Below are positions 6,399-21,333 of a DNA stretch of 64,000 nt, in pieces. Where the stretch lies: contig UQBM01000004.1 of NCBI GenBank assembly GCA_900539265.1, positions 7,982 to 71,981 on the forward strand, read 5' to 3'. The DNA comes from an uncultured Mollicutes bacterium (GTDB taxonomy: Bacteria; Bacillota_I; Bacilli_A; ML615J-28; CAG-313). The notes beneath the pieces are model-generated. The model ran no database searches and was not told the origin of the DNA. It worked only from the letters and a program-made list of their open reading frames with translations. The first letter of the stretch is position 1. Each line of letters begins with the position of its first letter. Made by a program: the position numbers and the translations under genes.

Positions 6399-7121
6399 AT
6401 GAAGTATGAATTTTCTTATAACGGAAAAACAATAGCTTATGAAATAATTTATAAGAAAGTAAAAAATATCAATATAAGAGTTAAACCAAGTGGAGAAGTT
6501 GTTGTTTCTTGTAATGAATCAATTGATAATAAAACTATTGAGTTAGAAATGATTAAACGAGCAAACTGGTTATTGGATACTATTGATAAATATAAAACAA
6601 ATTTAATTGAATTCGTTGATTCAAATCTTAGTTTGGTTGATGGAGAAGCTTTCTTAATATTAGGAAAAGTATTAAGAATTAAAAATATTGAATCAAATCA
6701 GTTTAAAATTGACTATGATAATAACTATTTATACATTTATAGACCAAATCAAAGAGGTATAAAGATGAAATTCAATCAATGGTATTTAAATTTTGTTACT
6801 TCCCAATTTAATGATATGGTAAATAAAGCATATAAAAAGTTTGAAAAATATGGTATTGTAAAACCAGAAGTTATTTATAAAAATATGAAAACTAGATGGG
6901 GAACTTGCAATATTGAAAAAGCTTTAATAACATTAAATATTCAGTTAATTAAAGTAGACCCATTTTTAACTGAGTATGTAATATGTCATGAATTGACACA
7001 TTTAAAATATAGAAATCATAATAAAGATTTTTATACATTCTTAACAGCAATGATTCCAGATTGGAAACAAAGAGAACAAATTTTAAACAATATTTTTATA
7101 AATAATTTAGGAGGTATTTAA
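6399..7121 (+). CDS. YgjP-like (DUF45/M48-type) zinc metallohydrolase embedded in the R-M operon
   Basis: 240 aa. WGTCN...ICHELTHLKYRNHNKDFY matches the WGSC and HExxH motifs of the YgjP/SprT-like family. Translationally coupled between hsdR and hsdM. Confidence 0.75.
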   Translation: MKYEFSYNGKTIAYEIIYKKVKNINIRVKPSGEVVVSCNESIDNKTIELEMIKRANWLLDTIDKYKTNLIEFVDSNLSLVDGEAFLILGKVLRIKNIESNQFKIDYDNNYLYIYRPNQRGIKMKFNQWYLNFVTSQFNDMVNKAYKKFEKYGIVKPEVIYKNMKTRWGTCNIEKALITLNIQLIKVDPFLTEYVICHELTHLKYRNHNKDFYTFLTAMIPDWKQREQILNNIFINNLGGI

Positions 7122-8648: not shown

Positions 8649-9806
8649 ATGAGTGAAAAAACAATCAATAAAGTCCCTAATGTTCCCAATTTAAGATTCT
8701 TCAATGATGACAACACTTGGTCAAATTCATCTCTTGAAAAAAAGTGTAAATTTGTTGGTGGTGGGACACCATCAACATTGAATCAAGATTATTGGAATGG
8801 AGATATTGCATGGATATCATCAGCTGATTTACTTGAAGAAAATGTTCATAAATACAATGTAAGTCGATTCATAACAAAAGAGGCCATAATGAATAGTGCC
8901 ACAAAAATATGTCCTATTAATACGATAATGATAGTGTCGAGAGTTGGTGTGGGAAAAATAGCAATTAGTAATTCTGAAATATGTACTAGTCAAGATTTTA
9001 CAAATCTCACAGAATATCAATTTGATAAAAACTTTTTAGTTTATTCACTTAAAAACACTATAGAAAAACTTAAAAATTCATCTCAAGGAACATCAATAAA
9101 AGGAATTACATCAAAAGAGATAAAGCAAATAAATATCTTCTATCCAGAAATAATCGAACAATGTAAAATAGGATTGTTTTTCAAAAAAATAGATGAACGA
9201 ATAGAGTTTCAAAGCAAAATCATTAACAAACTTGAATCCTTAATATGTACTTTAAGGTCTACAATTTTTAATAGTTATAACTGGGAATGGAATAGATTAG
9301 ATACTTATATTAAATCTGGTATTATTACATTAAAGCGTGGAAACGTTATTCCTAAACATGATGAGGACAGTGAATTTAAATTTCCAGTATATTCGTCATC
9401 AATACATAATAATGGTTTAATGGGTTATAACAATTCATACATGTTTGATAAAGAATTAATTACATGGTCTGTTGATGGTGGTGGAAACTTCTTTTATAGA
9501 CCTAAGCATAAATTTAATGTTACAAATGTCTGTGGAATTATGGAAATAACAGACAATTCATATAATTATAGATTTTTATCAGAAATTCTTTTAGCACAAC
9601 ATTCAAGACTTATATTCGATTATCAAACAAAAGCACACCCTAGTGTTATTGAGAAATTATATAAAATACCCAATGTGGATATAAAAATTCAAGAAAAAAT
9701 AGCTTATATATTTGAGCTTTATTACACAAAGTTACAAAAAGAAAAAGATATACTTTCACTTTATAAAAAGCAAAAAGCATATCTTCTCCAAAATATGTTT
9801 ATATAA
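8649..9806 (+). CDS. hsdS: Type I R-M specificity subunit (HsdS), expressed copy with two TRDs
   Basis: 385 aa. N-terminal KVPNVPNLRF conserved motif; central IDERIEFQSKIINKLESL and C-terminal conserved repeats typical of HsdS. Confidence 0.85.
   Translation: MSEKTINKVPNVPNLRFFNDDNTWSNSSLEKKCKFVGGGTPSTLNQDYWNGDIAWISSADLLEENVHKYNVSRFITKEAIMNSATKICPINTIMIVSRVGVGKIAISNSEICTSQDFTNLTEYQFDKNFLVYSLKNTIEKLKNSSQGTSIKGITSKEIKQINIFYPEIIEQCKIGLFFKKIDERIEFQSKIINKLESLICTLRSTIFNSYNWEWNRLDTYIKSGIITLKRGNVIPKHDEDSEFKFPVYSSSIHNNGLMGYNNSYMFDKELITWSVDGGGNFFYRPKHKFNVTNVCGIMEITDNSYNYRFLSEILLAQHSRLIFDYQTKAHPSVIEKLYKIPNVDIKIQEKIAYIFELYYTKLQKEKDILSLYKKQKAYLLQNMFI
8674..8698. repeat. Inverted repeat IR1, left copy (5' end of expressed hsdS)
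   Basis: TCCCtAATGTTCCCAATTTAAGATT. It is the reverse complement of 10925-10949, with 20 contiguous identical nt plus 4 more after one mismatch, and it encodes the shared PNVPNLRF segment. Confidence 0.8.
9210..9226. repeat. Inverted repeat IR2, left copy (central conserved region of expressed hsdS)
   Basis: CAAAGCAAAATCATTAA. A 17/17 reverse-complement match to 10358-10374, lying between TRD1 and TRD2. Confidence 0.6.
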
Positions 9807-9813
9807 ACATATT
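9792..9813. repeat. Perfect 22-bp palindrome at the tail-to-tail junction of the two hsdS genes
   Basis: AATATGTTTATATAAACATATT is its own reverse complement. It contains the stop codons of both convergent hsdS ORFs, and both end in ...NMFI. Confidence 0.85.
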
Positions 9814-11019
9814 AGCTAATAAATATTTCTTTTGTAAAAGATAGTCATTAAGAATTTGTTCTTCAATGGCTATTTTTTTGTCAAGTGATGTTACGATTAA
9901 AGTAATTTTAGAAATTAATTCCTTATTAGGGATCTTAACTTTAATACCAGTAAGAGTAGATAAGACTATATAAGGCATTGCTCCTACATTTTTTTCACGA
10001 TGTAGTTTTTTAGGAAGTTCAATTTCTAAAGCGAATTTTATATACAATGGATTTTTTATAAAATTTTGCAAAACATATGTTCTCTGATATGCATCAAACT
10101 TACCATTAAAATATTTAATTAATCCAACTTCACCATTTCCAGAAATTATTAACGATTCTCCTTCAAATGAGTATTTGTCTATATAATAATCTTCTTTAGC
10201 ACAAGTGAAGAATTTATATTTACCGTTAGGATTCATAGCATTTGCATCTAATTTTCCAGTTGTAATACTACATAGTTGATTTAAGGATATGTAATCAAAA
10301 TCATTTAAATCATTATAAATAGTATGTAGAATTCTATTTCTATAAGATTTATATTCCTTAATGATTTTGCTTTGGGTTAAAATTCTTTCATCAATCATTG
10401 ATAAGAATTTTCCAATTTTATTTTGTTCTTCTATTGTTGGAGTATAAAGTTTTAAGTTCTTTAGCTCTGGAATTCCAATTCTTTGACGTGTTGATCCGGC
10501 AGTTTTTGAGGCTATTATTTTTCTAATATTTTTTGTGTTAATTTGTTCTCTCATAAAAAGTTTATTACATTTTTTAATATCTAAATTAACTCGTATAGCA
10601 TCGGAACCTAACACATATCTTTTATAAAAATCATGAGCAATACAGCAACGACCTGCAGGCATCATTTTAGCAATAATTAAATCACCTGGATATGCGTTGT
10701 TTGCAATTAAACTATCAGCTTTTTTTACACTTGTGAATATTAATCTTTCAGTAAAATTTAAATAATCTTCTGTTATATTACTTAATTGAATGATAGGAAC
10801 ACCATCCAGCGTATAATCATTTGTCTTTAAATCTGACCCAAAAGGTCCGCCAGCAAAAGATTTTTTTTCATTTGTCGTAAGTAATTCTAGGCTTGTTGTT
10901 GTCCACTCATATATAAATTCAGGAAATCTTAAATTGGGAACATTGGGGATTTTATTCCTTATAATATTTAAAAATTTATTAAATTGACTTATGTATAGGA
11001 GGTAATTAATATGACTCAA
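9799..11019 (-). CDS. hsdS: Inverted silent hsdS cassette, convergent with and overlapping the expressed hsdS
   Basis: 406-aa ORF on the minus strand. It has the IPNVPNLRFP motif, the central IDERILTQSKII motif and the same C-terminal NMFI ending as the expressed hsdS. Its first about 23 codons (upstream of the inverted repeat) are probably not native, and it has no obvious promoter of its own. Confidence 0.75.
   Translation of the reverse strand: MSHINYLLYISQFNKFLNIIRNKIPNVPNLRFPEFIYEWTTTSLELLTTNEKKSFAGGPFGSDLKTNDYTLDGVPIIQLSNITEDYLNFTERLIFTSVKKADSLIANNAYPGDLIIAKMMPAGRCCIAHDFYKRYVLGSDAIRVNLDIKKCNKLFMREQINTKNIRKIIASKTAGSTRQRIGIPELKNLKLYTPTIEEQNKIGKFLSMIDERILTQSKIIKEYKSYRNRILHTIYNDLNDFDYISLNQLCSITTGKLDANAMNPNGKYKFFTCAKEDYYIDKYSFEGESLIISGNGEVGLIKYFNGKFDAYQRTYVLQNFIKNPLYIKFALEIELPKKLHREKNVGAMPYIVLSTLTGIKVKIPNKELISKITLIVTSLDKKIAIEEQILNDYLLQKKYLLANMFI
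10358..10374. repeat. Inverted repeat IR2, right copy (central region of silent hsdS)
   Basis: TTAATGATTTTGCTTTG, the reverse complement of 9210-9226. Confidence 0.6.
10925..10949. repeat. Inverted repeat IR1, right copy (5' end of silent hsdS)
   Basis: AATCTTAAATTGGGAACATTgGGGA, the reverse complement of 8674-8698. Confidence 0.8.
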
Positions 11020-11934
11020 ATTAAATTAAGTCAGATAATTGACTTATGGAAGAAAGACAAAAAGCAATATGTTAAAAAATCAACATATTCTGCATATGTG
11101 CTTTTAGTTAAAAATCATTTATTACCATATTTTGGTGATAAATACGAAGTTGAGGAGTCAGATGTTCAAAAGTTTGTATTTGAAAAATTGGAACAAGGAC
11201 TTAGTCAAAAAACTATTATGGACATTTTGATTGTATTAAAGATGATACTTAAGTTTGGAGTAAAACATAGGTATTTGTCTTGTCGTGAAATTGAAATTAA
11301 ATTCCCCACACAAAGAGAAAATGAGGGACTTGAGGTATTAAGCCGTTCAAATCAAAGAAAAATAATGGATTATATTGAAAAAAATTTTACTTTTAAAAAC
11401 TTAGGCATTTATATTTGTTTGAGTACAGGATTAAGAATAGGAGAATTATGTGCGTTAACATGGGATGATATAGATGAAGATAATGGTGTTATTTTAGTTA
11501 GGAAAACTATTCAAAGAATATATGTTATTGATGATGTTAAAAAAAGAACTGAATTAATTATAGATACACCAAAGACTAAAAATTCGATCAGAGATATTCC
11601 TATGACATCGAATTTAATTAAGATAATTAAACCTATTAAGAAAATTGTAAATAATGAATATTATGTTTTGACTAATGATATTAAACCAACAGAACCTAGA
11701 ACATATAGGAATTATTATAAAAGGTTTATGAAAAAATTTGATATTCCGGATTTAAAGTTTCATGGATTAAGACATAGTTTTGCAACTAGGTGTATTGAAG
11801 GAAAATGTGATTATAAAACTGTTAGCGTTATTTTAGGTCATTCAAATATAAGCACAACATTAAATTTATATGTCCACCCAAATCTTGAACAAAAGAAAAA
11901 ATGTATTAATCAGATGAATAGGTCATTAAGATAA
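11011..11934 (+). CDS. Tyrosine site-specific recombinase (phage-integrase family), putative hsdS invertase
   Basis: 307 aa. C-terminal catalytic signature HGLRHSFAT...LGHSNISTTLNLYVH (R-H-R-Y family). Its start overlaps the 5' end of the inverted hsdS by 9 nt. Confidence 0.85.
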   Translation: MTQIKLSQIIDLWKKDKKQYVKKSTYSAYVLLVKNHLLPYFGDKYEVEESDVQKFVFEKLEQGLSQKTIMDILIVLKMILKFGVKHRYLSCREIEIKFPTQRENEGLEVLSRSNQRKIMDYIEKNFTFKNLGIYICLSTGLRIGELCALTWDDIDEDNGVILVRKTIQRIYVIDDVKKRTELIIDTPKTKNSIRDIPMTSNLIKIIKPIKKIVNNEYYVLTNDIKPTEPRTYRNYYKRFMKKFDIPDLKFHGLRHSFATRCIEGKCDYKTVSVILGHSNISTTLNLYVHPNLEQKKKCINQMNRSLR

Positions 11935-11969
11935 AATATAATTATTCTTCAACTACTGTATTTACTTAT

Positions 11970-11998
11970 TTGAAAAAATAACAAAAAAAGTGTATAAT
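11970..11998 (+). promoter_or_regulatory. Putative sigma-A promoter (TTGAAA, 17 nt, TATAAT) for the DUF262 gene
   Basis: TTGAAA at 11970-11975 and TATAAT at 11993-11998 with 17-nt spacing, 25 nt upstream of the ATG at 12024. Confidence 0.35.
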
Positions 11999-12023
11999 AA
12001 ATATGTGATTGGAGTTGATTAAT

Positions 12024-15000
12024 ATGAAAGATATGTTGTCATTATCAGAATTATTTAATAAGAAGTTATTTAGAATACCAGACTATCAAAGAGGTTATGC
12101 TTGGGAAAAACAACAAGTAGAAGATTTTTGGAATGATTTAATGCTGCTTCATAAAGATAAAGAACATTATACAGGTATGTTATCATTACAAGAAATTAGA
12201 CCTAAATTAGATGATGTTAATTATTATGATTGTATTGATTTAAGAGATACTCATAAAATTTTTCATATTGTTGATGGACAACAAAGATTAACAACTTCAA
12301 TGCTATTAATTAATCAAATTATTAAAATTGATTATAGTAAATATGAACCAAGTATTTTTAATAATGAATTTATAAGTAGCATTAAAGGTAAATATATTTG
12401 TAATAACAAATGTTATGTGTTTGGCTATGAAGTAGATAATCCTAGTTTTGTTTATCTTAAAAATATATTTGGCGAATCAGATCCTACACTAATTAAGGAA
12501 TCAAGATATACAAGAAACTTATCAGTTGCAAGTCATATCTTTGAAGAGAACTTAAAGAAGCTAATAAAAGATAAAGGTGTAAAGGCCGTTGAAGATTTAT
12601 TCTATAAGTTAACAGAAAAGTTACAATTTAATATTCATTATATTAAACATAATTTTGATGTTCACGTTGCTTTTGAAACAATGAATAATCGTGGTAAGAA
12701 ATTGTCCAACTTAGAGATATTAAAGAATAGATTAATATATCTTTCAACTTTATATCCAGATTCAAAAAAAATGAAAGCAAAGAAATTAAATCTACAAAAA
12801 GAAATAAATGATGCTTGGAAAGAAATATATTATAATTTAGGTAAAGATTTAAATAATGAACTAGACGATGATATGTTCTTAAAAGCTCATTGGGCATTAT
12901 ATTTTAAGTTTAGTAAGACTGATTCAGATACATATGTTAATGAATTGTTAAATAAATATTTTATTCCTGCAGCTGTTAATGATTTTATAAGGGAATATAA
13001 TGATAGTGAACTTGATGAAGATGATATAGATTGGAGTGATGATGCACTAACGATTGAAGAAATATCATCATATGTAAAAAGTTTAAGAGAAACATCAAAA
13101 TATTATTATGATACTTTTGTTCCTAATCCTAAACTATCAGAAGAAGAACAAAACTATATTCGTAAACTTAATAGAATAGGTATTGGATATAGTGCATTAC
13201 GAAATTTAGTTGTTGCATCATATTTGGTAAGTAAAGATAAAGATGCAAGTTTTGCTGAAAAACGTATTGAACTATTTAAAGCAATTGAAAGATTTATTTT
13301 CTTATGTTTTAGAACAGCAGGTTTTCAATCATCATATAAAAGTGGAGTATATTATAGATATGCAGGCCAAATGTTACAACCAGAAGGTAACTTATCTATT
13401 GATGCAGTAATTGAAGATATTAATAAAACAGTTGATGATGATATGCCACAAATCATTCAATCGTTTATAACACAATCAAATGGATGGTTTAGTGAAAATA
13501 ATCATTATGGATTCTATGCATGGACCGGATTAAAATACTTTTTATTTGAATATGAAGAATCACTTTTAAATGCATCAACAGGAACAAAGATATCAGGAGA
13601 TAATTACTTTAAGAAAAGTGAAAAAGATAAAGTATCAATTGAACATATTTTTCCACAAACACCTTCAAAATATTATTGGGCTAACCTTTATAGATCATAT
13701 GATAAAGATAATGAAGTTTGGAAACTAGCAGGAACAATAGGTAACTTATTACCTCTTTCAAGTTCTATTAATTCAAGTTTGCAAAATGATTCATTTGAAG
13801 CTAAGGTTAATGGAAGAAAAGGTGCTGTTGGATATGAAATGAATTCATATTCAGCTATTGAAGTATCAAAACACCATAAATGGTTAGAAGAAGATTATCC
13901 ATCATTTAATAAATATTATTTTAGAAATATTGATGAAACTGAATTTGACTGGACACCAGAAAAGATAGAGAGAAGAGGAATACATTTACTTAAATTCTTA
14001 TCTAAAAGATATAATTGTCCTTTAACAGATGAAGATATAATTAGTTTATTGCATATTGATTTTATTCATGATGAAATTAGACAAGCATTACCACCATTAG
14101 AAAAGTATGATGATGATGTCTTTGAAATCACTTCACAAAAAGGATACAATGTTGATAGAGTAAAATACTGGACTGCCTTTGAAGAATATTGTGAAGGTTT
14201 AGGATACGGATTTATGACAACATATGATGATCCTTCTGAAAGAAACTATTTTGACTTGAGATATCAAGAAGATTTTAACTATGTATTTAAAGTAAATCGT
14301 AATGGAATTGAATTCTGTTTATATTGCTATACTCCAACAGTTTACTCAAAAATGGCTTCAATTAAAAATGAGCTAGAAGAAGCTTTAGGATGTGAATTTG
14401 TTTGGGATTTAAGCAAGGCTAATTCACTTGCTAAAAGAATTTCATTATTTAAGGATATTGATTATTCTAAATCAAATAACTGGGATGAATGTTTCGAATG
14501 GTATATTGAATGTTTTAATAGTATAAAGGACATATTGTTATTACATTTTCCTGTTAAAAAACAAAGCGGTACAATGAGTGTTGATGAACATTTATTAACT
14601 AAACCAGAAAAAATGAGTAAAATCTATAAAGAGATTTATGGAAAAGTAAAAGACAAAATTAGTGATTTTTATGAAGTTGCTACAAATCCATACATTGCGT
14701 TTAGAACAAACAAGAATGATAACTTTGCTGAAATATGGATTCAACGTTCACAAATTAAAGTGATGTTACGTTCAAACGAAGTAGGATATCCTGTAGGTTC
14801 TAAAGTTGGAGATTCATATAGATGGACACACAACTGGAGAATTGCTTTAGTCAGTGAGAAACAAATAGACGAAGTTGTAGCATGTATTTTAATCAGTTAT
14901 TATTCAATTGATAATAATGTAGAAATGATGAATAAAATTAAGGACAATATAAATCATATAACTGATTTTGATTTACAACAGTCAAATACATTTGAAAGAG

Positions 15001-15245
15001 GGGAAGTATTTTCTTTTGTGAAATGTGGAATACCAGCTGGAGCAGAACTAGAATACATTTATGATCCTTCTATAAAATGTACAGTTTATGATGAAAGAAA
15101 GATTAATTATAATGGTGAAATAATGTATATGACTACATTAGTAAAACAAATAACAAAAATACCATCACCAAATGGACCATCATATTTTAGTTATAATGGA
15201 AAAAATCTTTCTGAATATTATATTGAATATCAATCAAAGAAATAA
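12024..15245 (+). CDS. GmrSD-like Type IV (modification-dependent) restriction protein: DUF262 + DUF1524 with a long C-terminal extension
   Basis: 1073 aa from the ATG at 12024 (the ORF track's TTG at 12009 lacks an RBS; GGAG lies 9 nt upstream of the ATG). The N-terminus has IPDYQRGYAW and DGQQRLTT (DUF262/ParB-like NTPase hallmarks). Mid-protein SIEHIFPQTP matches the DUF1524 His-Me finger motif. About 450 aa of additional C-terminal sequence has unknown function. Confidence 0.8.
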   Translation: MKDMLSLSELFNKKLFRIPDYQRGYAWEKQQVEDFWNDLMLLHKDKEHYTGMLSLQEIRPKLDDVNYYDCIDLRDTHKIFHIVDGQQRLTTSMLLINQIIKIDYSKYEPSIFNNEFISSIKGKYICNNKCYVFGYEVDNPSFVYLKNIFGESDPTLIKESRYTRNLSVASHIFEENLKKLIKDKGVKAVEDLFYKLTEKLQFNIHYIKHNFDVHVAFETMNNRGKKLSNLEILKNRLIYLSTLYPDSKKMKAKKLNLQKEINDAWKEIYYNLGKDLNNELDDDMFLKAHWALYFKFSKTDSDTYVNELLNKYFIPAAVNDFIREYNDSELDEDDIDWSDDALTIEEISSYVKSLRETSKYYYDTFVPNPKLSEEEQNYIRKLNRIGIGYSALRNLVVASYLVSKDKDASFAEKRIELFKAIERFIFLCFRTAGFQSSYKSGVYYRYAGQMLQPEGNLSIDAVIEDINKTVDDDMPQIIQSFITQSNGWFSENNHYGFYAWTGLKYFLFEYEESLLNASTGTKISGDNYFKKSEKDKVSIEHIFPQTPSKYYWANLYRSYDKDNEVWKLAGTIGNLLPLSSSINSSLQNDSFEAKVNGRKGAVGYEMNSYSAIEVSKHHKWLEEDYPSFNKYYFRNIDETEFDWTPEKIERRGIHLLKFLSKRYNCPLTDEDIISLLHIDFIHDEIRQALPPLEKYDDDVFEITSQKGYNVDRVKYWTAFEEYCEGLGYGFMTTYDDPSERNYFDLRYQEDFNYVFKVNRNGIEFCLYCYTPTVYSKMASIKNELEEALGCEFVWDLSKANSLAKRISLFKDIDYSKSNNWDECFEWYIECFNSIKDILLLHFPVKKQSGTMSVDEHLLTKPEKMSKIYKEIYGKVKDKISDFYEVATNPYIAFRTNKNDNFAEIWIQRSQIKVMLRSNEVGYPVGSKVGDSYRWTHNWRIALVSEKQIDEVVACILISYYSIDNNVEMMNKIKDNINHITDFDLQQSNTFERGEVFSFVKCGIPAGAELEYIYDPSIKCTVYDERKINYNGEIMYMTTLVKQITKIPSPNGPSYFSYNGKNLSEYYIEYQSKK

Positions 15246-15508
15246 AGTGAGAGGTGGTCTAAGTGACTGCCTTTTTTAAATATTAAAAAGAAACTAAAAA
15301 GGAAATTTTCCAATTTAAATTATTTAAGATTATTATATATAACCATATATATACTAAGGTGACAGATAAATATATAAATAGTATAAAGAGGTATAGTATA
15401 TATAAAAGTATGGAAAACATGTGTCACCATTCGTCACCACTAGCTGAAAGAAAAAGTTGTGGCCTCGTTCATTAATAAAATTTATGTTAACGAAAGGAAC
15501 CACCTTAC

Positions 15509-16858
15509 ATGCTTAGTCAAAAAGAAATAGAAAAATTAAGAAGATTATTTTATGAAAATCATTATACAGTAGCTGAAATAACAAGGATAATGAATGTATC
15601 TCGTAATACTTGTTATAAATATCTTAAGTTTGTTGATTTTAATGCTTATGTTAAAGAAAACATTATTTAGATGATTATAAAGAAATAATGTTAGACATAA
15701 TAAAAAAGAATAGCCTTCATCATCATAAACAACGATATACTGGTAGTCGAGCTTATGAATATTTAAGAGAAAATTATCCAGATTTTGATTATGCTAAAAT
15801 ATCAACAATTAAATACTTCACTAAACTTAAAAAAGAATTTTATTATTCACATGATGGATTTCTTCCTTTAGAACATAAACTTTGGAGTTGCTAAAGTTGA
15901 TTTTGGAGATTGTAGTTTTATAGAAAAAGGTATTAAAATATATGGTAAATACTGTGTATTATCATTTACTCATTCTAATGCATCATACATGCAAATAATG
16001 AGAAATAAGAATGCTGAAAGCATAACATTAGCTTTAAGACACATCTTTGAATACTTAAATGGAGTACCACATACAATATGGTTTGATAATGATACAGCTT
16101 TAGTTAAAATAGAAATAGAAGAATACCATGTCAAGAAAAGAACTATATGTGATACTTTTCAAAGATTTAAATTACATTATGATTTTCAAGAAGTATTCTT
16201 AAATACTGGTAGGGGATACGAAAAAGGAACTGTAGAGCAAGGTGTAAGATTTATGAGAAGAAACCTACTTGTTCCACTTCCTTCATTTGATGACTTTGAT
16301 GCATTTAATAAAGAACTACTAGAAGAATCAAAGAATCTTCTTAAAAGAGAACATTATGCCTTAAAACAACCAATTATTGATTTACATTATGAAGACATAA
16401 CTGAACTTAATCCACTTCCTCTAACAGCTTTTGAACCATCATCAATATCAACAAAAAAACTAGATAATTATGGAAGACTTACAACTGAAGGAAGACTGTA
16501 TTATTACTTATCACCATCATATGCATATAAAAAAATACAAATAAAATTCCTATCTGATGCTTTAGAGATATATGATGAAGATGGAAGACACATCATGAAT
16601 GTTCCAAGACTTTCAGCAGCAAAAGGTGCAAGATATATTAACTGGAGTCCTTATATTAGACTTCTTGCAGTAAAACCAGCTGCAATGTATAACTTTTCAT
16701 TTCTAGATCTATTTACTGATAAAGATATAGTTGAAAGAATAACAAAGTTAAATTCATATGATTTAAAAATATTCTTAGAAAAGTTTGCTGATATGATTGA
16801 TAGTGCTGGACTTAATGAAGCTATTAATAAAGTAACTACACTACTTAAAGATGATTAA
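15509..16858 (+). mobile_element. istA: IS21-family istA transposase remnant, broken into at least three reading frames, with no istB
   Basis: 15509-15670 encodes a 53-aa HTH N-terminus (RNTCYKYL). 15688-15894 and 15989-16858 continue in other frames; KVDFGDCSF...HTIWFDNDTALV resembles the IstA DDE core (qvDwGe...vyDN). Upstream IR/DR motifs GGTGACA (15358) / TGTCACC (15422) and GTCACCA x2 look like IS-end transposase-binding repeats. Confidence 0.6.
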
Positions 16859-18522: not shown

Positions 18523-21333
18523 ATGAAAAAATTATTTGTCTTTTTAACTTTAGCTTTAGTATCATTTTTTATCACAGGTTGTATTGATGAAAATACGGAT
18601 CCTAAAGCATCTGTTGAAAATGCTATTAGTCAATGTTTTAAAAATGTTGATTTGAATCATGTTGAATCAAATCTAGTTTTTGAAACTACAATTGGTGAAG
18701 TAACTTTAAGTTATGAGTCTTCTAATAAAGATGTTGTTTCTAATGAGGGAATTGTTAGAAGGCAACAAGTTGATGTAACTCTTCAAATTACAGTTACTTT
18801 TAGCGTTGGTTCATATAAAAAAGCAAAAGTATATGACGTTACAGTATTAAAGCAAGAACTTCAAACAATAAGTCAAATAAAAAAACTTCCAACCGAAGGA
18901 TTTGTAATTACAACAGGAATTGTGGCATTTATTGTTTATGGAACGGAAAAGAATGTTCCCGTTGGTTTCTATTTATTTGATGAGACAGATGCAATTTATG
19001 TTCATAGTTCAGAATATGCTGAAACCCTAAAAGTTGGCAATAAAGTAGAAGTAAGTGGCGAATATACAAAATATATTGATCAAAATTCTCTTACATCTGC
19101 TGAAATGGCGGGATATACAGGAGCAAAACAAATTGTCCCAACGAGTGTAAAAACGGATGGTGAAATTTATGAAGTTCCTACCTCATTTATAGAGGATCAT
19201 TCCATTGCTAATTTATGTAGTATTCCTGTATCAGAAAATATTACATCAAATGTTTATAAAGTGGTGGCAAAGGTTCGTAAATCAGTTGGCAATGGTTTTG
19301 TTAATTATTATTTTGATGATTTAAATGGTGTGAATAGTTATTATGCCTATACGACAGCAAACGGAAAAGATTTAGCATGGCTTGAAGAGTATGATGGTAG
19401 TATTAGAGAATGTTATATTGCAATTCATAATTGTAAGCTTTCCGCAAGCGGTAATTTTTGGCGAATTGTTCCAATTCAAATTTTAGATGAAGTTGAAGTA
19501 ACAGATGAAGAATATATGGAATATAGTCTAGATCGTCTAGCTAACCAATTCATTGATCATTATGATAGTCCTTGTAGTTTTGATTTGGTAAATACTGATG
19601 AAAAATTAGCAGGTTCATCAGTTTGTTATTCCTCTAATTTTGAAGGTGTAACTTTTACTAATAATGGTTATACAATTCATCTTGAATTTGGTGAAGAAAA
19701 AGTGACTATGGCAGTTACCATTTCGCTTACTTATAATGGGAAAACTTTAACTAGAGTTGTTGAGTTTGAGGCAGCAATGATAAAGCCAACTATTGAGACA
19801 ATTACAATTGAAGAAGCAAGAAAAGTTGCAAAAGGTGAAAAGGTAACAATTGAGGGTTATATTGTTGGTTTCTTATATTTAGTAGGTACTTCTAAACCTG
19901 CAGGTTTTGAATTAATTGATGATACTAGTTCAATTGCAGTATTTGTATCAACTGCTGTTGACACGAACACTGATATTACTAAATTAAGTATTGGTGAGTT
20001 TGTTTATGTTGAAGGATATGGTGATTTATATCAACCACGAGAAGATCATAATCATACTGGTTCTATTAGATTAAATAATGCAGAAGTACTATATCATGAT
20101 TGGCAAGAACATGAACTTCCAACTCACGCAATAGAAGAAGTGGTTTTTAAAGATTTGGTAAATAATCCATCTGATAACAATATTACTAATATGGTTTTTA
20201 AAACACAAATCTATGTTGAAAGAAGTTCGGGAAGTTATGTAAATTATTACATTCATGATATTCATGATCCATCATTAAGTACAATTGTATATTCACAAAA
20301 TTCTGGTAAAAATGGTCCTGCTGAATATGAATGGTTAAAACCATATGCTGGAAAATGTGTTGAAGCGTATGTCACTCTTCGTATTGGTGCTGTTTCTAGT
20401 GGTAAATTTATTTGGAAAGCTGGAGTGTTACAAGTTTTAGGTGAAGTTGAAACCCCTGAGGCTTTAGTAGGATATTTTGAAAAAACAAAAATTGAGGGAT
20501 TATTTGATAATGAATATGCTGATAGTGCAGTAATTGAATATGAAGTATTAGAAGGCAGTAATATTGTTCTTTCCCATTCTTCTAGTGATGCGGTAACTGC
20601 AGTACAAGAAGGAAATTTATTTCAGATTCATATTGCAACTCCAACTCAAACAGAAGATGTTTCAATCAGTCTAGTCTTAACGTATGGCAGTACTGAGACA
20701 ACGATTGATATTTTCTTTAAAATTGTTAAAGCTGAAATATTAACAATTGAACAATTTAGAGAAAAAGCTACAAAAAATGGAGAAACTGTTATTGTAGAAG
20801 GAATCGTATCCTCAATTGTTAAATCAAGTGGTGCTACGAAATGGAACTTCTATATAACTGATGAAACGGGTACAATTTATTGTAAAACCCAAGCAGCAGT
20901 TGAAGTTGGCGATAAAGTTTTGATTAAAGGTAATATGGATTTATATTATGGATTACCTCAGTTTGCTGATGGCTCAACAATTACTATATTATCTCAAGGC
21001 AATGCAGTACCAACATCTTCTTTCTTAAAAGACAAAACGTTAGAAGATGTAGCAGTTGATAGTAAAGCAGGTGAAAATGCTTTACTTGGTGGAATTGTTT
21101 ATATGGATGTTGAGGCAACTGTTCATGTTAGTGCCTCAGGTGAAAGAGCATATTTATCTTTAGGTTCGGTAGAAATTGATTTATATAATTATACTAATGC
21201 AAAATATTATGCCGAAAACTATCAAGAGTTAGAGGCTTTAAATGGAAAAACAATTGTGGTTACTCTAGTTTCTTTTAACTGGTATAAGACGCAATATACA
21301 TATGTTATTGCTAATTATATAGTAGTTGAATAA
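18523..21333 (+). CDS. Large surface lipoprotein (936 aa) with three OB-fold-like modules
   Basis: N-terminal signal peptide with lipobox FFITGC. Three repeated modules fit an OB-fold/tRNA_anti-like pattern (GxVxxIVxxxxGFxLxDxTGxIxVxxxxxxxxKVGDxVxVxGxxxxYxG): KLPTEGFVITTGIVAFIVYG..., TIEEARKVAKGEKVTIEGYIVGF..., TIEQFREKATKNGETVIVEGIVSSIVK... No catalytic motif recognised. Confidence 0.75.
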   Translation: MKKLFVFLTLALVSFFITGCIDENTDPKASVENAISQCFKNVDLNHVESNLVFETTIGEVTLSYESSNKDVVSNEGIVRRQQVDVTLQITVTFSVGSYKKAKVYDVTVLKQELQTISQIKKLPTEGFVITTGIVAFIVYGTEKNVPVGFYLFDETDAIYVHSSEYAETLKVGNKVEVSGEYTKYIDQNSLTSAEMAGYTGAKQIVPTSVKTDGEIYEVPTSFIEDHSIANLCSIPVSENITSNVYKVVAKVRKSVGNGFVNYYFDDLNGVNSYYAYTTANGKDLAWLEEYDGSIRECYIAIHNCKLSASGNFWRIVPIQILDEVEVTDEEYMEYSLDRLANQFIDHYDSPCSFDLVNTDEKLAGSSVCYSSNFEGVTFTNNGYTIHLEFGEEKVTMAVTISLTYNGKTLTRVVEFEAAMIKPTIETITIEEARKVAKGEKVTIEGYIVGFLYLVGTSKPAGFELIDDTSSIAVFVSTAVDTNTDITKLSIGEFVYVEGYGDLYQPREDHNHTGSIRLNNAEVLYHDWQEHELPTHAIEEVVFKDLVNNPSDNNITNMVFKTQIYVERSSGSYVNYYIHDIHDPSLSTIVYSQNSGKNGPAEYEWLKPYAGKCVEAYVTLRIGAVSSGKFIWKAGVLQVLGEVETPEALVGYFEKTKIEGLFDNEYADSAVIEYEVLEGSNIVLSHSSSDAVTAVQEGNLFQIHIATPTQTEDVSISLVLTYGSTETTIDIFFKIVKAEILTIEQFREKATKNGETVIVEGIVSSIVKSSGATKWNFYITDETGTIYCKTQAAVEVGDKVLIKGNMDLYYGLPQFADGSTITILSQGNAVPTSSFLKDKTLEDVAVDSKAGENALLGGIVYMDVEATVHVSASGERAYLSLGSVEIDLYNYTNAKYYAENYQELEALNGKTIVVTLVSFNWYKTQYTYVIANYIVVE

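What the first reader, a model, noticed from the sequence alone, without database searches (positions are those of the whole stretch)
12024..15245. Unusually long (1073 aa) DUF262-DUF1524 GmrSD-like protein with about 450-aa uncharacterised C-terminal extension
DUF262 (DGQQR) plus DUF1524 (His-Me finger, HIFPQ) defines GmrSD/BrxU/SspE-like modification-dependent nucleases, which are usually 600-750 aa. The extra 450 aa here (aa 640-1073; Cys, Trp and Tyr-rich, e.g. CPLTDEDI, YRWTHNWRIAL) may be a novel modified-base reader or regulatory domain. The gene lies directly downstream of the phase-variable Type I R-M system, under its own promoter, forming a defence island.
Basis: partly seen in the sequence, partly recalled or inferred. 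Interest (0 to 1): 0.6.

Follow-up and report, generated by a model that had tools for sequence, protein, structure and literature searches.

The report
GmrSD-type nuclease with three C-terminal modules
This is a real, intact gene for a GmrSD-family (Type IV, modified-DNA-cutting) anti-phage nuclease whose long tail is a rare string of three separate, already widespread accessory modules, not one unknown domain; the last module has the DNA-binding fold of the CcrM/MPND "RAMA" domain.

Summary
The ORF at 12024-15245 (+) is real, intact and 1073 aa long. The exact protein occurs on 214 public contigs, and two 78-81% identical, colinear orthologues exist, so it is not a frameshift fusion. Residues 1-657 are a canonical GmrSD core: DUF262 with DGQQR, a helical linker, and the DUF1524 His-Me finger with EHIFP. 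The best PADLOC model is HEC-06.

The "uncharacterised 450 aa" splits into three modules:
- **DUF4268 (aa 702-839).** Its fusion to GmrSD has been known since 2015. The model here has a secretion-chaperone/YktB-like alpha+beta fold with no close solved relative.
- **DUF5655 (aa 845-961).** The fold was not determined.

Each module also occurs alone behind related GmrSD cores. Only three 90% clusters carry all three.

All modules are under purifying selection. The gene has its own promoter-like site and terminator hairpin, and it sits in unrelated contexts elsewhere.

Verdict: a stand-alone Type IV restriction candidate and a new architectural variant of a known kind. The modules tested do not have SRA, EVE, PUA or winged-helix folds. 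Interest is modest.

The parts
11970..11998 (+). Sigma-70-like promoter, TTGAAA-17 nt-TATAAT, 25 nt upstream of the start codon.
   Evidence: It is the best-scoring site in 11800-15500, matching 11 of 12 positions. It is a consensus match only: the AT-rich region gives fewer sites than its own shuffles do.
12011..12014 (+). Ribosome-binding site GGAG, 9 nt before the ATG.
   Evidence: Read directly from the sequence. The same GGAGTT..TTAATATG arrangement occurs in the orthologue L003, although its upstream DNA is otherwise unrelated.
12024..15245 (+). Coding sequence of the 1073-aa GmrSD-family protein, stop codon included.
   Evidence: The exact protein is on 214 contigs, and NCBI MFR1525060.1 is named 'DUF4268 domain-containing protein [Bacilli bacterium]'.
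12042..12734 (+). GmrSD_N / DUF262 ParB-like NTPase domain (aa 7-237). The DGQQR motif is at 12273-12287 (aa 84-88).
   Evidence: Pfam PF03235, E 4e-29, 102.6 bits against a cut-off of 33.2. Motif position.
12735..13529 (+). Inter-domain linker region of the core (aa 238-502), with no Pfam assignment.
   Evidence: It lies between the two Pfam hits and is colinear in all 120 relatives. dN/dS is 0.07. That this region is a helical linker is taken from the literature (10.1101/2024.01.29.577857), not tested here.
13530..13994 (+). GmrSD_C / DUF1524 His-Me finger nuclease domain (aa 503-657). The EHIFP motif is at 13641-13655 (aa 540-544).
   Evidence: Pfam PF07510, E 1.4e-14, 54.6 bits against a cut-off of 23. 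Motif position. The equivalent E/H residues are essential in HEC-06 (10.1101/2024.01.29.577857).
14127..14540 (+). Module 1: DUF4268 (aa 702-839).
14556..14906 (+). Module 2: DUF5655 (aa 845-961).
   Evidence: Pfam PF18899, 27.2 bits as a fragment against a cut-off of 24, and 20 of 22 family members match. It is the sole tail of the 809-818-aa relatives. The fold was not determined.
14907..14990 (+). Linker between modules 2 and 3 (aa 962-989).
   Evidence: It is the least constrained segment, with dN/dS 0.41 and 56% identity to the orthologue.
14991..15242 (+). Module 3: RAMA-fold small DNA-binding domain (aa 990-1073). No Pfam model matches it.
15249..15277 (+). Terminator-like hairpin followed by a U-run, 4 nt after the stop codon.
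   Evidence: RNAfold gives -13.9 kcal/mol with z -4.4. The simple terminator scan did not report it.

Best explanation
The gene encodes a stand-alone, single-polypeptide Type IV (modification-dependent) restriction endonuclease of the GmrSD family, closest to the HEC-06 type.

**Shown here**
- The DUF262 NTPase domain with DGQQR, the linker, and the DUF1524 His-Me finger with EH are all intact.
- Three further modules follow: DUF4268, DUF5655 and a RAMA-fold domain.
- All parts are under purifying selection.
- The gene travels as one unit between unrelated genomic contexts.

**Inferred from characterised relatives (GmrSD, BrxU, HEC-06)**
- The protein surveys DNA using NTP hydrolysis.
- It cuts invading DNA that carries a non-host base modification with the His-Me finger.

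**Inferred from domain architecture**
- The three C-terminal modules act as DNA-binding and target-discriminating adaptors. They would determine, or broaden, which DNA is accepted as substrate.
- The RAMA-fold module most likely gives sequence-independent backbone binding, as it does in CcrM and MPND. It is less likely to read 6mA, because the host itself makes m6A with the adjacent Type I methylase.
- DUF4268 is the best candidate for the modification-sensing element, and DUF5655 a possible one. Both alternate directly behind the same core, and DUF4268 is also attached to the unrelated modification-dependent nucleases MdgA and MdgB.
For: **Core**
- Both Pfam core domains score well above their cut-offs.
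- The best PADLOC model is HEC-06 (4.8e-36), followed by Orf5 and SspE models.
- DGQQR and EHIFP are present. The same motifs are essential for HEC-06 defence. A HEC-06 homologue blocks T-even phages, and its authors class it with modification-dependent nucleases.

**Modularity**
- Among the 120 closest relatives, 71 are core+DUF4268 and 18 are core+DUF5655. A further 27 carry one of those two plus another module of 90-160 aa (DUF6508, DUF7225, DUF7662 or unassigned). Only 3 are core+DUF4268+DUF5655+RAMA-like.
- The RAMA-like module also occurs directly behind GmrSD cores (P0205, P0212), behind Mrr_cat (P0216), and behind T5orf172, often in 2-5 tandem copies.
- Each module matches the non-catalytic part of a different single-gene PADLOC candidate: PDC-S11, PDC-S18 and PDC-S57.
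- DUF4268 is present in MdgA and MdgB, which defend against T4 but not against unmodified T4-GT7.

**RAMA fold**
-. RAMA domains bind the DNA backbone without base contacts (PMC9963953).

**Selection and autonomy**
- dN/dS is 0.07-0.20 for every module.
- The gene has its own promoter-like site and a terminator-like hairpin.
- The flanks are unrelated in L003 and L004.
Against: - There is no experimental datum for this protein or for any protein with this tail.
- The DUF5655 fold was not determined.
- The HEC-06 profile match covers mainly the N-terminal half, so orthology to the tested HEC-06 protein is not established.
- The RAMA assignment rests on a predicted structure. The Pfam library, which should hold the RAMA model, gave no RAMA match even at E up to 10.
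- Which modification, if any, is targeted is unknown.
Confidence: 0.7

Rival explanations
1. The C-terminal modules are regulatory or protein-sensing rather than DNA-reading. DUF4268, and perhaps DUF5655, would bind a peptide or protein such as a phage anti-restriction factor, a partner subunit, or the enzyme's own nuclease domain for auto-inhibition. This would gate the nuclease, while only the RAMA-fold module touches DNA.
For: - The best structural neighbours of the DUF4268 model are type III secretion chaperones (SicP, Spa15, SycN/YscB) and YbjN/AmyR-like proteins, which bind polypeptides.
- Neither modelled module has a classical modified-base reader fold (SRA, EVE, PUA, YTH or winged helix).
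- The variable extra modules after DUF4268 in relatives (DUF6508, DUF7225, DUF7662) look like swappable sensor cassettes.
Against: - DUF4268 recurs on several nuclease types whose shared property is a preference for modified DNA.
- A DNABIND prediction in PMC5714182 favours DNA binding for DUF4268.
Confidence: 0.2
2. The protein is a functional accessory of the adjacent phase-variable Type I R-M system. This would resemble BrxU with BREX or SspE with SspABCD, with the RAMA-like module reading the m6A marks written by HsdM.
For: - The gene lies 90 nt downstream of the hsdS-inversion recombinase gene and on the same strand.
- A member of the same 90% cluster has an NCBI accession (MFR1525060.1) that falls in series with the HsdR and HsdM accessions (MFR1525054.1, MFR1525056.1), which suggests the same gene order in a public MAG.
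- RAMA was originally proposed as a 6mA reader.
- A prophage GmrSD+DUF4268 protein is labelled 'RloF'. From memory, that name derives from R-linked ORFs in Campylobacter Type I loci.
Against: - The 78% orthologue sits next to RNase III or AAA_11/AAA_12 helicase genes, with no Type I R-M nearby. Its flanks share no nucleotide similarity with the window.
- The gene has its own promoter-like site and terminator hairpin.
- An m6A-triggered nuclease beside an m6A methylase whose specificity switches would be self-destructive.
- 6mA did not affect MPND RAMA binding to DNA.
Confidence: 0.08
3. The long ORF is an assembly or sequencing artefact that fuses a GmrSD gene to downstream genes.
For: Only the unusual length supports this.
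Against: - The identical 1073-aa protein is on 214 contigs from four sources.
- Two independent ENA assemblies carry the representative of its 90% cluster (100% identical by BLASTP).
- The 78-81% identical orthologues of 1073-1074 aa are colinear end to end.
- Purifying selection acts across all the junction-flanking modules.
Confidence: 0.01

Closest known systems
HEC-06 (a GmrSD-like single-gene defence; Payne et al., bioRxiv 10.1101/2024.01.29.577857) and HEC-06_Bact (bioRxiv 10.1101/2025.02.28.640651)
   Same: - It is the best PADLOC model for this protein (E 4.8e-36).
- It has the same DUF262(DGQQR)-linker-DUF1524(EHxxP) core.
- It is also a single-gene system found beside or inside other defence loci.
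   Different: - The HEC-06 profiles are about 560-570 positions long, and the best stretch covers only the N-terminal half here.
- HEC-06 has no three-module tail.
- This gene is not embedded in an Hma system.
GmrSD+DUF4268 proteins, annotated 'DUF4268 domain-containing protein'. One example is QBX21445.1 'RloF' of Streptococcus phage Javan575.
   Same: - They share the same core clade, at 39-42% identity over 78% of the query.
- DUF4268 sits in the same position.
- The architecture was described in PMC4619093 and PMC5714182.
   Different: - They end after DUF4268 (848-851 aa), or add one different module such as DUF7662, DUF7225 or DUF6508.
- None of the 117 other relatives carries DUF4268 and DUF5655 together, or the RAMA-like module.
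EcoCT/Eco94 GmrSD, BrxU and SspE (characterised GmrSD-family enzymes)
   Same: They share the domain pair and the catalytic motifs. SspE is the only PDB sequence hit, and the match is limited to the DUF262 N-terminus (E 0.0018).
   Different: - Sequence similarity is very low.
- There are no BREX or Ssp partner genes here.
- The C-terminal regions differ.
MdgA and MdgB (modification-dependent nucleases with DUF4268) and PADLOC PDC-S11
   Same: They share the DUF4268 module. MdgA degrades T4 DNA far better than unmodified T4-GT7 DNA.
   Different: Their nuclease domains are unrelated to GmrSD, and the proteins are much smaller.
T5orf172/GIY-YIG-RAMA fusions (PADLOC PDC-S57; noted as candidate Type IV enzymes in PMC11037411)
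   Same: Their C-terminal domain is 62-64% identical to aa 990-1073 and has the same fold class.
   Different: - The effector is a T5orf172 (GIY-YIG-like) domain, not GmrSD.
- The module is often repeated 2-5 times there, but occurs once here.
RAMA domain of CcrM (PDB 6PBD) and MPND (PDB 7YDT, 7YDW)
   Different: - Sequence identity is only 12-19%.
- The Pfam scan, which should include the RAMA model, returned no RAMA match.
- The nearest Pfam family by sequence is DUF2924, weakly (9 of 23 members, best E 5e-4, below the cut-off).

Membership tests
GmrSD family (Type IV restriction endonucleases) | N-terminal DUF262/GmrSD_N domain with the DGQQR NTPase motif | tested here: met
   PF03235 scores 102.6 bits against a cut-off of 33.2. 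DGQQR is at aa 84-88.
GmrSD family (Type IV restriction endonucleases) | C-terminal DUF1524/GmrSD_C His-Me finger with the (D/E)H catalytic pair | tested here: met
   PF07510 scores 54.6 bits against a cut-off of 23. EHIFP is at aa 540-544, followed by GNLLPL...IN...QN.
GmrSD family (Type IV restriction endonucleases) | Cleavage depends on a DNA base modification, and the protein protects against phages with modified DNA | not testable with these tools
   This needs phage challenge and in-vitro nuclease assays.
HEC-06 (PADLOC) | Full-length match to the HEC-06 profile | tested here: inconclusive
   The E-value is 4.8e-36 in 2 stretches, but the best stretch covers only profile positions 17-286 of 569. 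It is the best model, yet orthology is not shown.
DUF4268 (PF14088) | Score above Pfam's gathering threshold | tested here: met
   46.6 bits against 27, at aa 712-836. The alignment with 32 homologues keeps 9 invariant columns.
DUF5655 (PF18899) | Score above Pfam's gathering threshold | tested here: met
   The match is marginal: 21.7 bits in the whole protein (below 24), but 26.6-27.2 bits for the isolated fragment. 20 of 22 aligned homologues match the family.
RAMA domain (Pfam RAMA family; CcrM C-terminal domain, MPND) | Sequence match to the Pfam RAMA model | tested here: not met
   No RAMA hit for any of 23 family members at E up to 10, nor for 10 longer relatives at E up to 0.01.
RAMA domain (Pfam RAMA family; CcrM C-terminal domain, MPND) | RAMA three-dimensional fold | tested here: met
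RAMA domain (Pfam RAMA family; CcrM C-terminal domain, MPND) | Binds DNA, with the proposed 6mA preference | not testable with these tools
   The literature itself is divided on a 6mA preference (PMC9963953).
PDC-S57 (PADLOC candidate: T5orf172 plus a C-terminal domain) | N-terminal T5orf172 nuclease-like domain plus the C-terminal domain | tested here: not met
   Only the C-terminal half of the profile (110-217 of 221) matches, at E 5.5e-21. There is no T5orf172 in this protein. It shares a module with PDC-S57 but is not a member.
SspE / BrxU subtypes | Genetic association with SspABCD or BREX genes | tested here: not met
   The neighbours are Type I R-M genes, a recombinase and an IS remnant. 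The SspE similarity is limited to aa 16-97.

The most novel reading that the evidence does not exclude
The three tail modules are three different DNA-feature readers on one nuclease. This would be a 'multi-reader' Type IV enzyme whose substrate range is the union, or a required coincidence, of several modification or structure signals. DUF4268 and DUF5655 would then be new classes of modified-DNA reader, with folds unrelated to SRA, EVE, YTH or winged helix. The variable C-terminal cassette array of this GmrSD clade would be a natural combinatorial library of such readers.
Probability: 0.2. Interest if true: 0.6.

Novelty: new variant of a known kind. Interest (0 to 1): 0.35.

Why it matters
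GmrSD-family enzymes are a major class of defence against phages with hypermodified DNA, but how they choose their substrates is poorly understood.

This clade shows that one conserved NTPase-nuclease engine is combined with interchangeable C-terminal modules. The window protein is the extreme case, with three modules. It is therefore a convenient natural scaffold for deletion and swap experiments that ask what DUF4268, DUF5655 and the RAMA-fold module each contribute.

Two further points are useful for annotation:
- The analysis gives a fold assignment (RAMA) to a large domain family of at least 2,294 clusters at 50% identity. No Pfam model matches it, and it recurs on T5orf172, Mrr and GmrSD nucleases.
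- DUF4268 is shown not to have a classical reader fold.

None of this changes the basic picture of Type IV restriction.

Tried and rejected
- **One alignment for the whole tail.** I tried to build a single alignment for aa 700-1073, or for 845-1073, for structure prediction. MAFFT spread the single-module fragments across neighbouring modules.
- **Profile comparisons between modules.** DUF4268 against DUF5655 and RAMA-like against DUF5655 showed no similarity. They are not repeats of one domain.
- **PDB sequence and profile searches for the three modules.** Nothing significant came back. The weak Aq_1549 hit for DUF5655 (E 0.065) was inspected and judged uninformative. The halogenase hit for DUF4268 (E 0.007, a helix only) was ignored.
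- **GTDB species representatives scan with the whole protein.** It returned only two distant Cloacimonadota hits, so it gave no help on taxonomy. The organism was inferred from exact-match look-ups instead.
- **Second search with aa 841-1073.** It returned only 4 proteins. A profile search returned mostly truncated gene calls of T5orf172 proteins.
- **Other libraries and collections.** NCBIfam gave no model. The plasmid collection gave no match to the tail. Rfam gave nothing in the window. The afdb50 fold library was not available.
- **Papers.** A preprint that mentions PDC-S11 could not be opened. A search for 'RloF' gave nothing relevant.
Full report
**1. The observation**

An uninterrupted ORF runs 12009..15245 on the + strand. 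From the ATG at 12024 it encodes 1073 aa. That ATG has a GGAG 9 nt upstream, and public gene calls for identical and related proteins use the same start. The gene is 26.5% G+C, so stop codons are frequent. The chance of 1073 stop-free codons is about 1e-48.

Only Cys is enriched in the tail (2.3% against 0.6% in the core). Trp and Tyr are not enriched.

**2. The ORF is not an artefact**

- The exact protein is found on 214 contigs from NCBI, JGI, ENA and Logan.
- A member of the same 90% cluster is NCBI MFR1525060.1, 'MAG: DUF4268 domain-containing protein [Bacilli bacterium]'.
- Neighbouring window proteins carry names from 'Bacilli bacterium' and 'Acholeplasmatales bacterium' MAGs.
- Two further clusters, P0002 and P0003 (81% and 78% identity, 1073 and 1074 aa), are colinear to the last residue.
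- Against the P0003 gene, dN/dS is 0.07-0.20 in every domain and module. Only the aa 961-987 linker is relaxed, at 0.41. dS is near saturation, so these ratios are approximate.

**3. The core (aa 1-657)**

Pfam gives GmrSD_N at 7-237 (E 4e-29) and GmrSD_C at 503-657 (E 1.4e-14), both well above their cut-offs. PADLOC ranks the HEC-06 models first (E 4.8e-36), then Orf5 and SspE. NCBIfam has no model for the protein. The only PDB sequence hit is SspE, restricted to the DUF262 N-terminus.

HEC-06 is an experimentally validated GmrSD-like defence. Mutations in DGQQR (Q79A, R80A) and in the EH pair (E471A, H472A) abolish its protection (10.1101/2024.01.29.577857). A Bacteroides homologue defends against T-even phages (10.1101/2025.02.28.640651), and its authors class it with modification-dependent nucleases. 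The window protein keeps both motifs.

**4. The tail is three modules, not one domain**

*(a) DUF4268, aa 702-839.* It scores 46.6 bits in Pfam against a cut-off of 27. GmrSD+DUF4268 fusions were described in 2015 and 2017 (PMC4619093 and PMC5714182). They dominate the relatives, at 848-851 aa, annotated 'DUF4268 domain-containing protein'.

*(b) DUF5655, aa 845-961.* It is marginal in the whole protein (21.7 bits against a cut-off of 24) but scores 27.2 bits as a fragment. 20 of 22 aligned homologues hit PF18899. In 809-818-aa relatives this module follows the core directly, with no DUF4268. It has no PDB sequence relatives and no profile similarity to DUF4268.

*(c) The last module, aa 990-1073.* No Pfam family matches at threshold. 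It matches the C-terminal half of PADLOC PDC-S57 (E 5.5e-21). It is 62-64% identical to the C-termini of 223-226-aa proteins whose N-terminus is a T5orf172/MUG113 (GIY-YIG-like) domain.

By sequence the nearest Pfam family is DUF2924, but only weakly: 9 of 23 members, best E 5e-4.

An exhaustive profile search found 2,294 cluster representatives at E up to 1e-3, and 834 at E up to 1e-10. Many carry 2-5 tandem copies. Ten of the longer hits were scanned with Pfam. Among them are T5orf172 fusions, an Mrr_cat fusion (P0216) and two GmrSD fusions (P0205 and P0212). This is the same spectrum of contexts (GIY-YIG-RAMA, RAMA-Mrr) that PMC11037411 flagged as candidate Type IV enzymes.

**5. Combinatorial architecture**

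I searched the 120 best relatives of the core with HMMs built from the three module alignments.

| Architecture | Count |
|---|---|
| core + DUF4268 | 71 |
| core + DUF5655 | 18 |
| core + DUF4268 + one more module of 90-160 aa | 19 |
| core + DUF5655 + an unassigned module of about 160 aa | 8 |
| core + DUF4268 + DUF5655 + RAMA-like (window protein and its two orthologue clusters) | 3 |

One further relative, P0021 (1071 aa), carries an unassigned insert of about 300 aa and then DUF5655.

In the core + DUF4268 + extra group, the extra modules identified are DUF6508, DUF7225 and DUF7662. The rest are unassigned.

The tail of this clade is therefore a variable cassette array, and the window protein is its longest, triple version. 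A prophage example is Streptococcus phage Javan575 'RloF', 939 aa, with the architecture GmrSD+DUF4268+DUF7662. It sits next to the phage recombinase.

**6. Context and autonomy**

Upstream lie hsdR, a YgjP-like metallopeptidase gene, hsdM, hsdS, a second hsdS in inverted orientation, and a tyrosine recombinase gene. Inverted repeats link the two hsdS genes: 32 nt at 94% and 29 nt at 83%. This is consistent with an hsdS shufflon.

The GmrSD gene has the best promoter-like site of its region, TTGAAA-17-TATAAT at 11970-11998. A stable hairpin with a U-run lies just after the stop codon (-13.9 kcal/mol, z -4.4).

The P0003 orthologue sits between an RNase III gene and AAA_11/AAA_12 helicase genes. 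Its flanks share no nucleotide similarity with the window. The gene is thus a self-contained unit that lands in different places. Here it happens to form a small defence island with the Type I system.

**7. Mechanism**

*Shown:* a complete GmrSD engine plus three conserved modules.

*Inferred from characterised relatives:* NTP-dependent surveillance, and His-Me finger cleavage of DNA that carries a foreign modification.

*Inferred from architecture:* the modules are adaptors for DNA binding or substrate choice.
- Each module recurs on different nuclease chassis.
- DUF4268 is shared with MdgA and MdgB, which defend against T4 but not unmodified T4-GT7.
- The RAMA fold binds the DNA backbone without base contacts in CcrM and MPND, and 6mA did not change MPND binding.

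The host's own Type I methylase makes m6A, and its specificity can switch. A 6mA-triggered nuclease would therefore be self-destructive. So I favour non-specific DNA anchoring for the RAMA-fold module. That leaves DUF4268 and/or DUF5655 as the candidate discriminators.

The main rival is that DUF4268, whose nearest folds bind peptides, is a regulatory or protein-sensing module.

**8. Novelty**

The family, the DUF4268 fusion and RAMA-nuclease fusions are all already in the literature. The exact protein is already in public databases under a DUF name.

What is new here:
- The resolution of the tail into three modules.
- The RAMA fold assignment for a large domain family that no Pfam model matches.
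- The secretion-chaperone-like fold of DUF4268.
- The recognition that this protein combines all three modules, which is rare (3 clusters).

This is a new architectural variant of a known kind, of modest interest. It would become more interesting if the modules prove to be independent readers.

Noticed in passing
window 8649-11934: There are two hsdS genes in opposite orientation (8649-9806 on +, 9799-11019 on -), followed by a tyrosine recombinase gene (11011-11934). Inverted repeats lie at 8667-8698/10925-10956 (94%) and 9210-9238/10346-10374 (83%). This looks like a Type I specificity-subunit shufflon.
   Followed up: partly
window 6399-7121: A YgjP-like (SprT/WLM-type) metallopeptidase gene is wedged between hsdR and hsdM inside the Type I operon.
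   Followed up: no
window 15510-16858: Downstream of the gene is what looks like a decayed insertion sequence. A 53-aa HTH ORF (weak HTH_7 hit in the identical contigs L005 and L006) is followed by interrupted reading frames and a 289-aa ORF with no Pfam hit. The same junction is present, 100% identical, in the metagenome contig L005.
   Followed up: partly
P0159, P0160, P0161: Some proteins consist largely of 4-5 tandem copies of the RAMA-like module. P0159, for example, is 983 aa with five copies at 414-982 and no Pfam domain at all. The family has at least 2,294 representatives at 50% identity, and no Pfam model matches it.
   Followed up: partly
L003 4696-4878 and L004 5676-5858: An identical 60-aa ORF follows the 78% orthologue in both of its contexts, about 140 nt after the stop codon. 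It is absent from the window. It could be a small linked gene of that lineage.
   Followed up: no
L003 5079-11873: Two large AAA_11/AAA_12 (DNA2/Upf1-like) helicase genes, one with DUF2726, flank an SDR gene downstream of the orthologue. This may be another defence cluster.
   Followed up: no
window 18523-21333: A 936-aa protein carries an atrophied bacterial Ig domain and OB-fold (tRNA_anti-codon-like) hits. Different sources name it 'lipoprotein' or 'RecJ-like exonuclease'. It is very common in the same MAG lineage.
   Followed up: no
(P0004-P0012 against P0009-P0016): The window protein's core is closer to the DUF5655-only relatives (43-46% identity) than to the DUF4268-only relatives (39-42%). 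This hints that DUF4268 was inserted between the core and DUF5655, rather than DUF5655 being appended.
   Followed up: no
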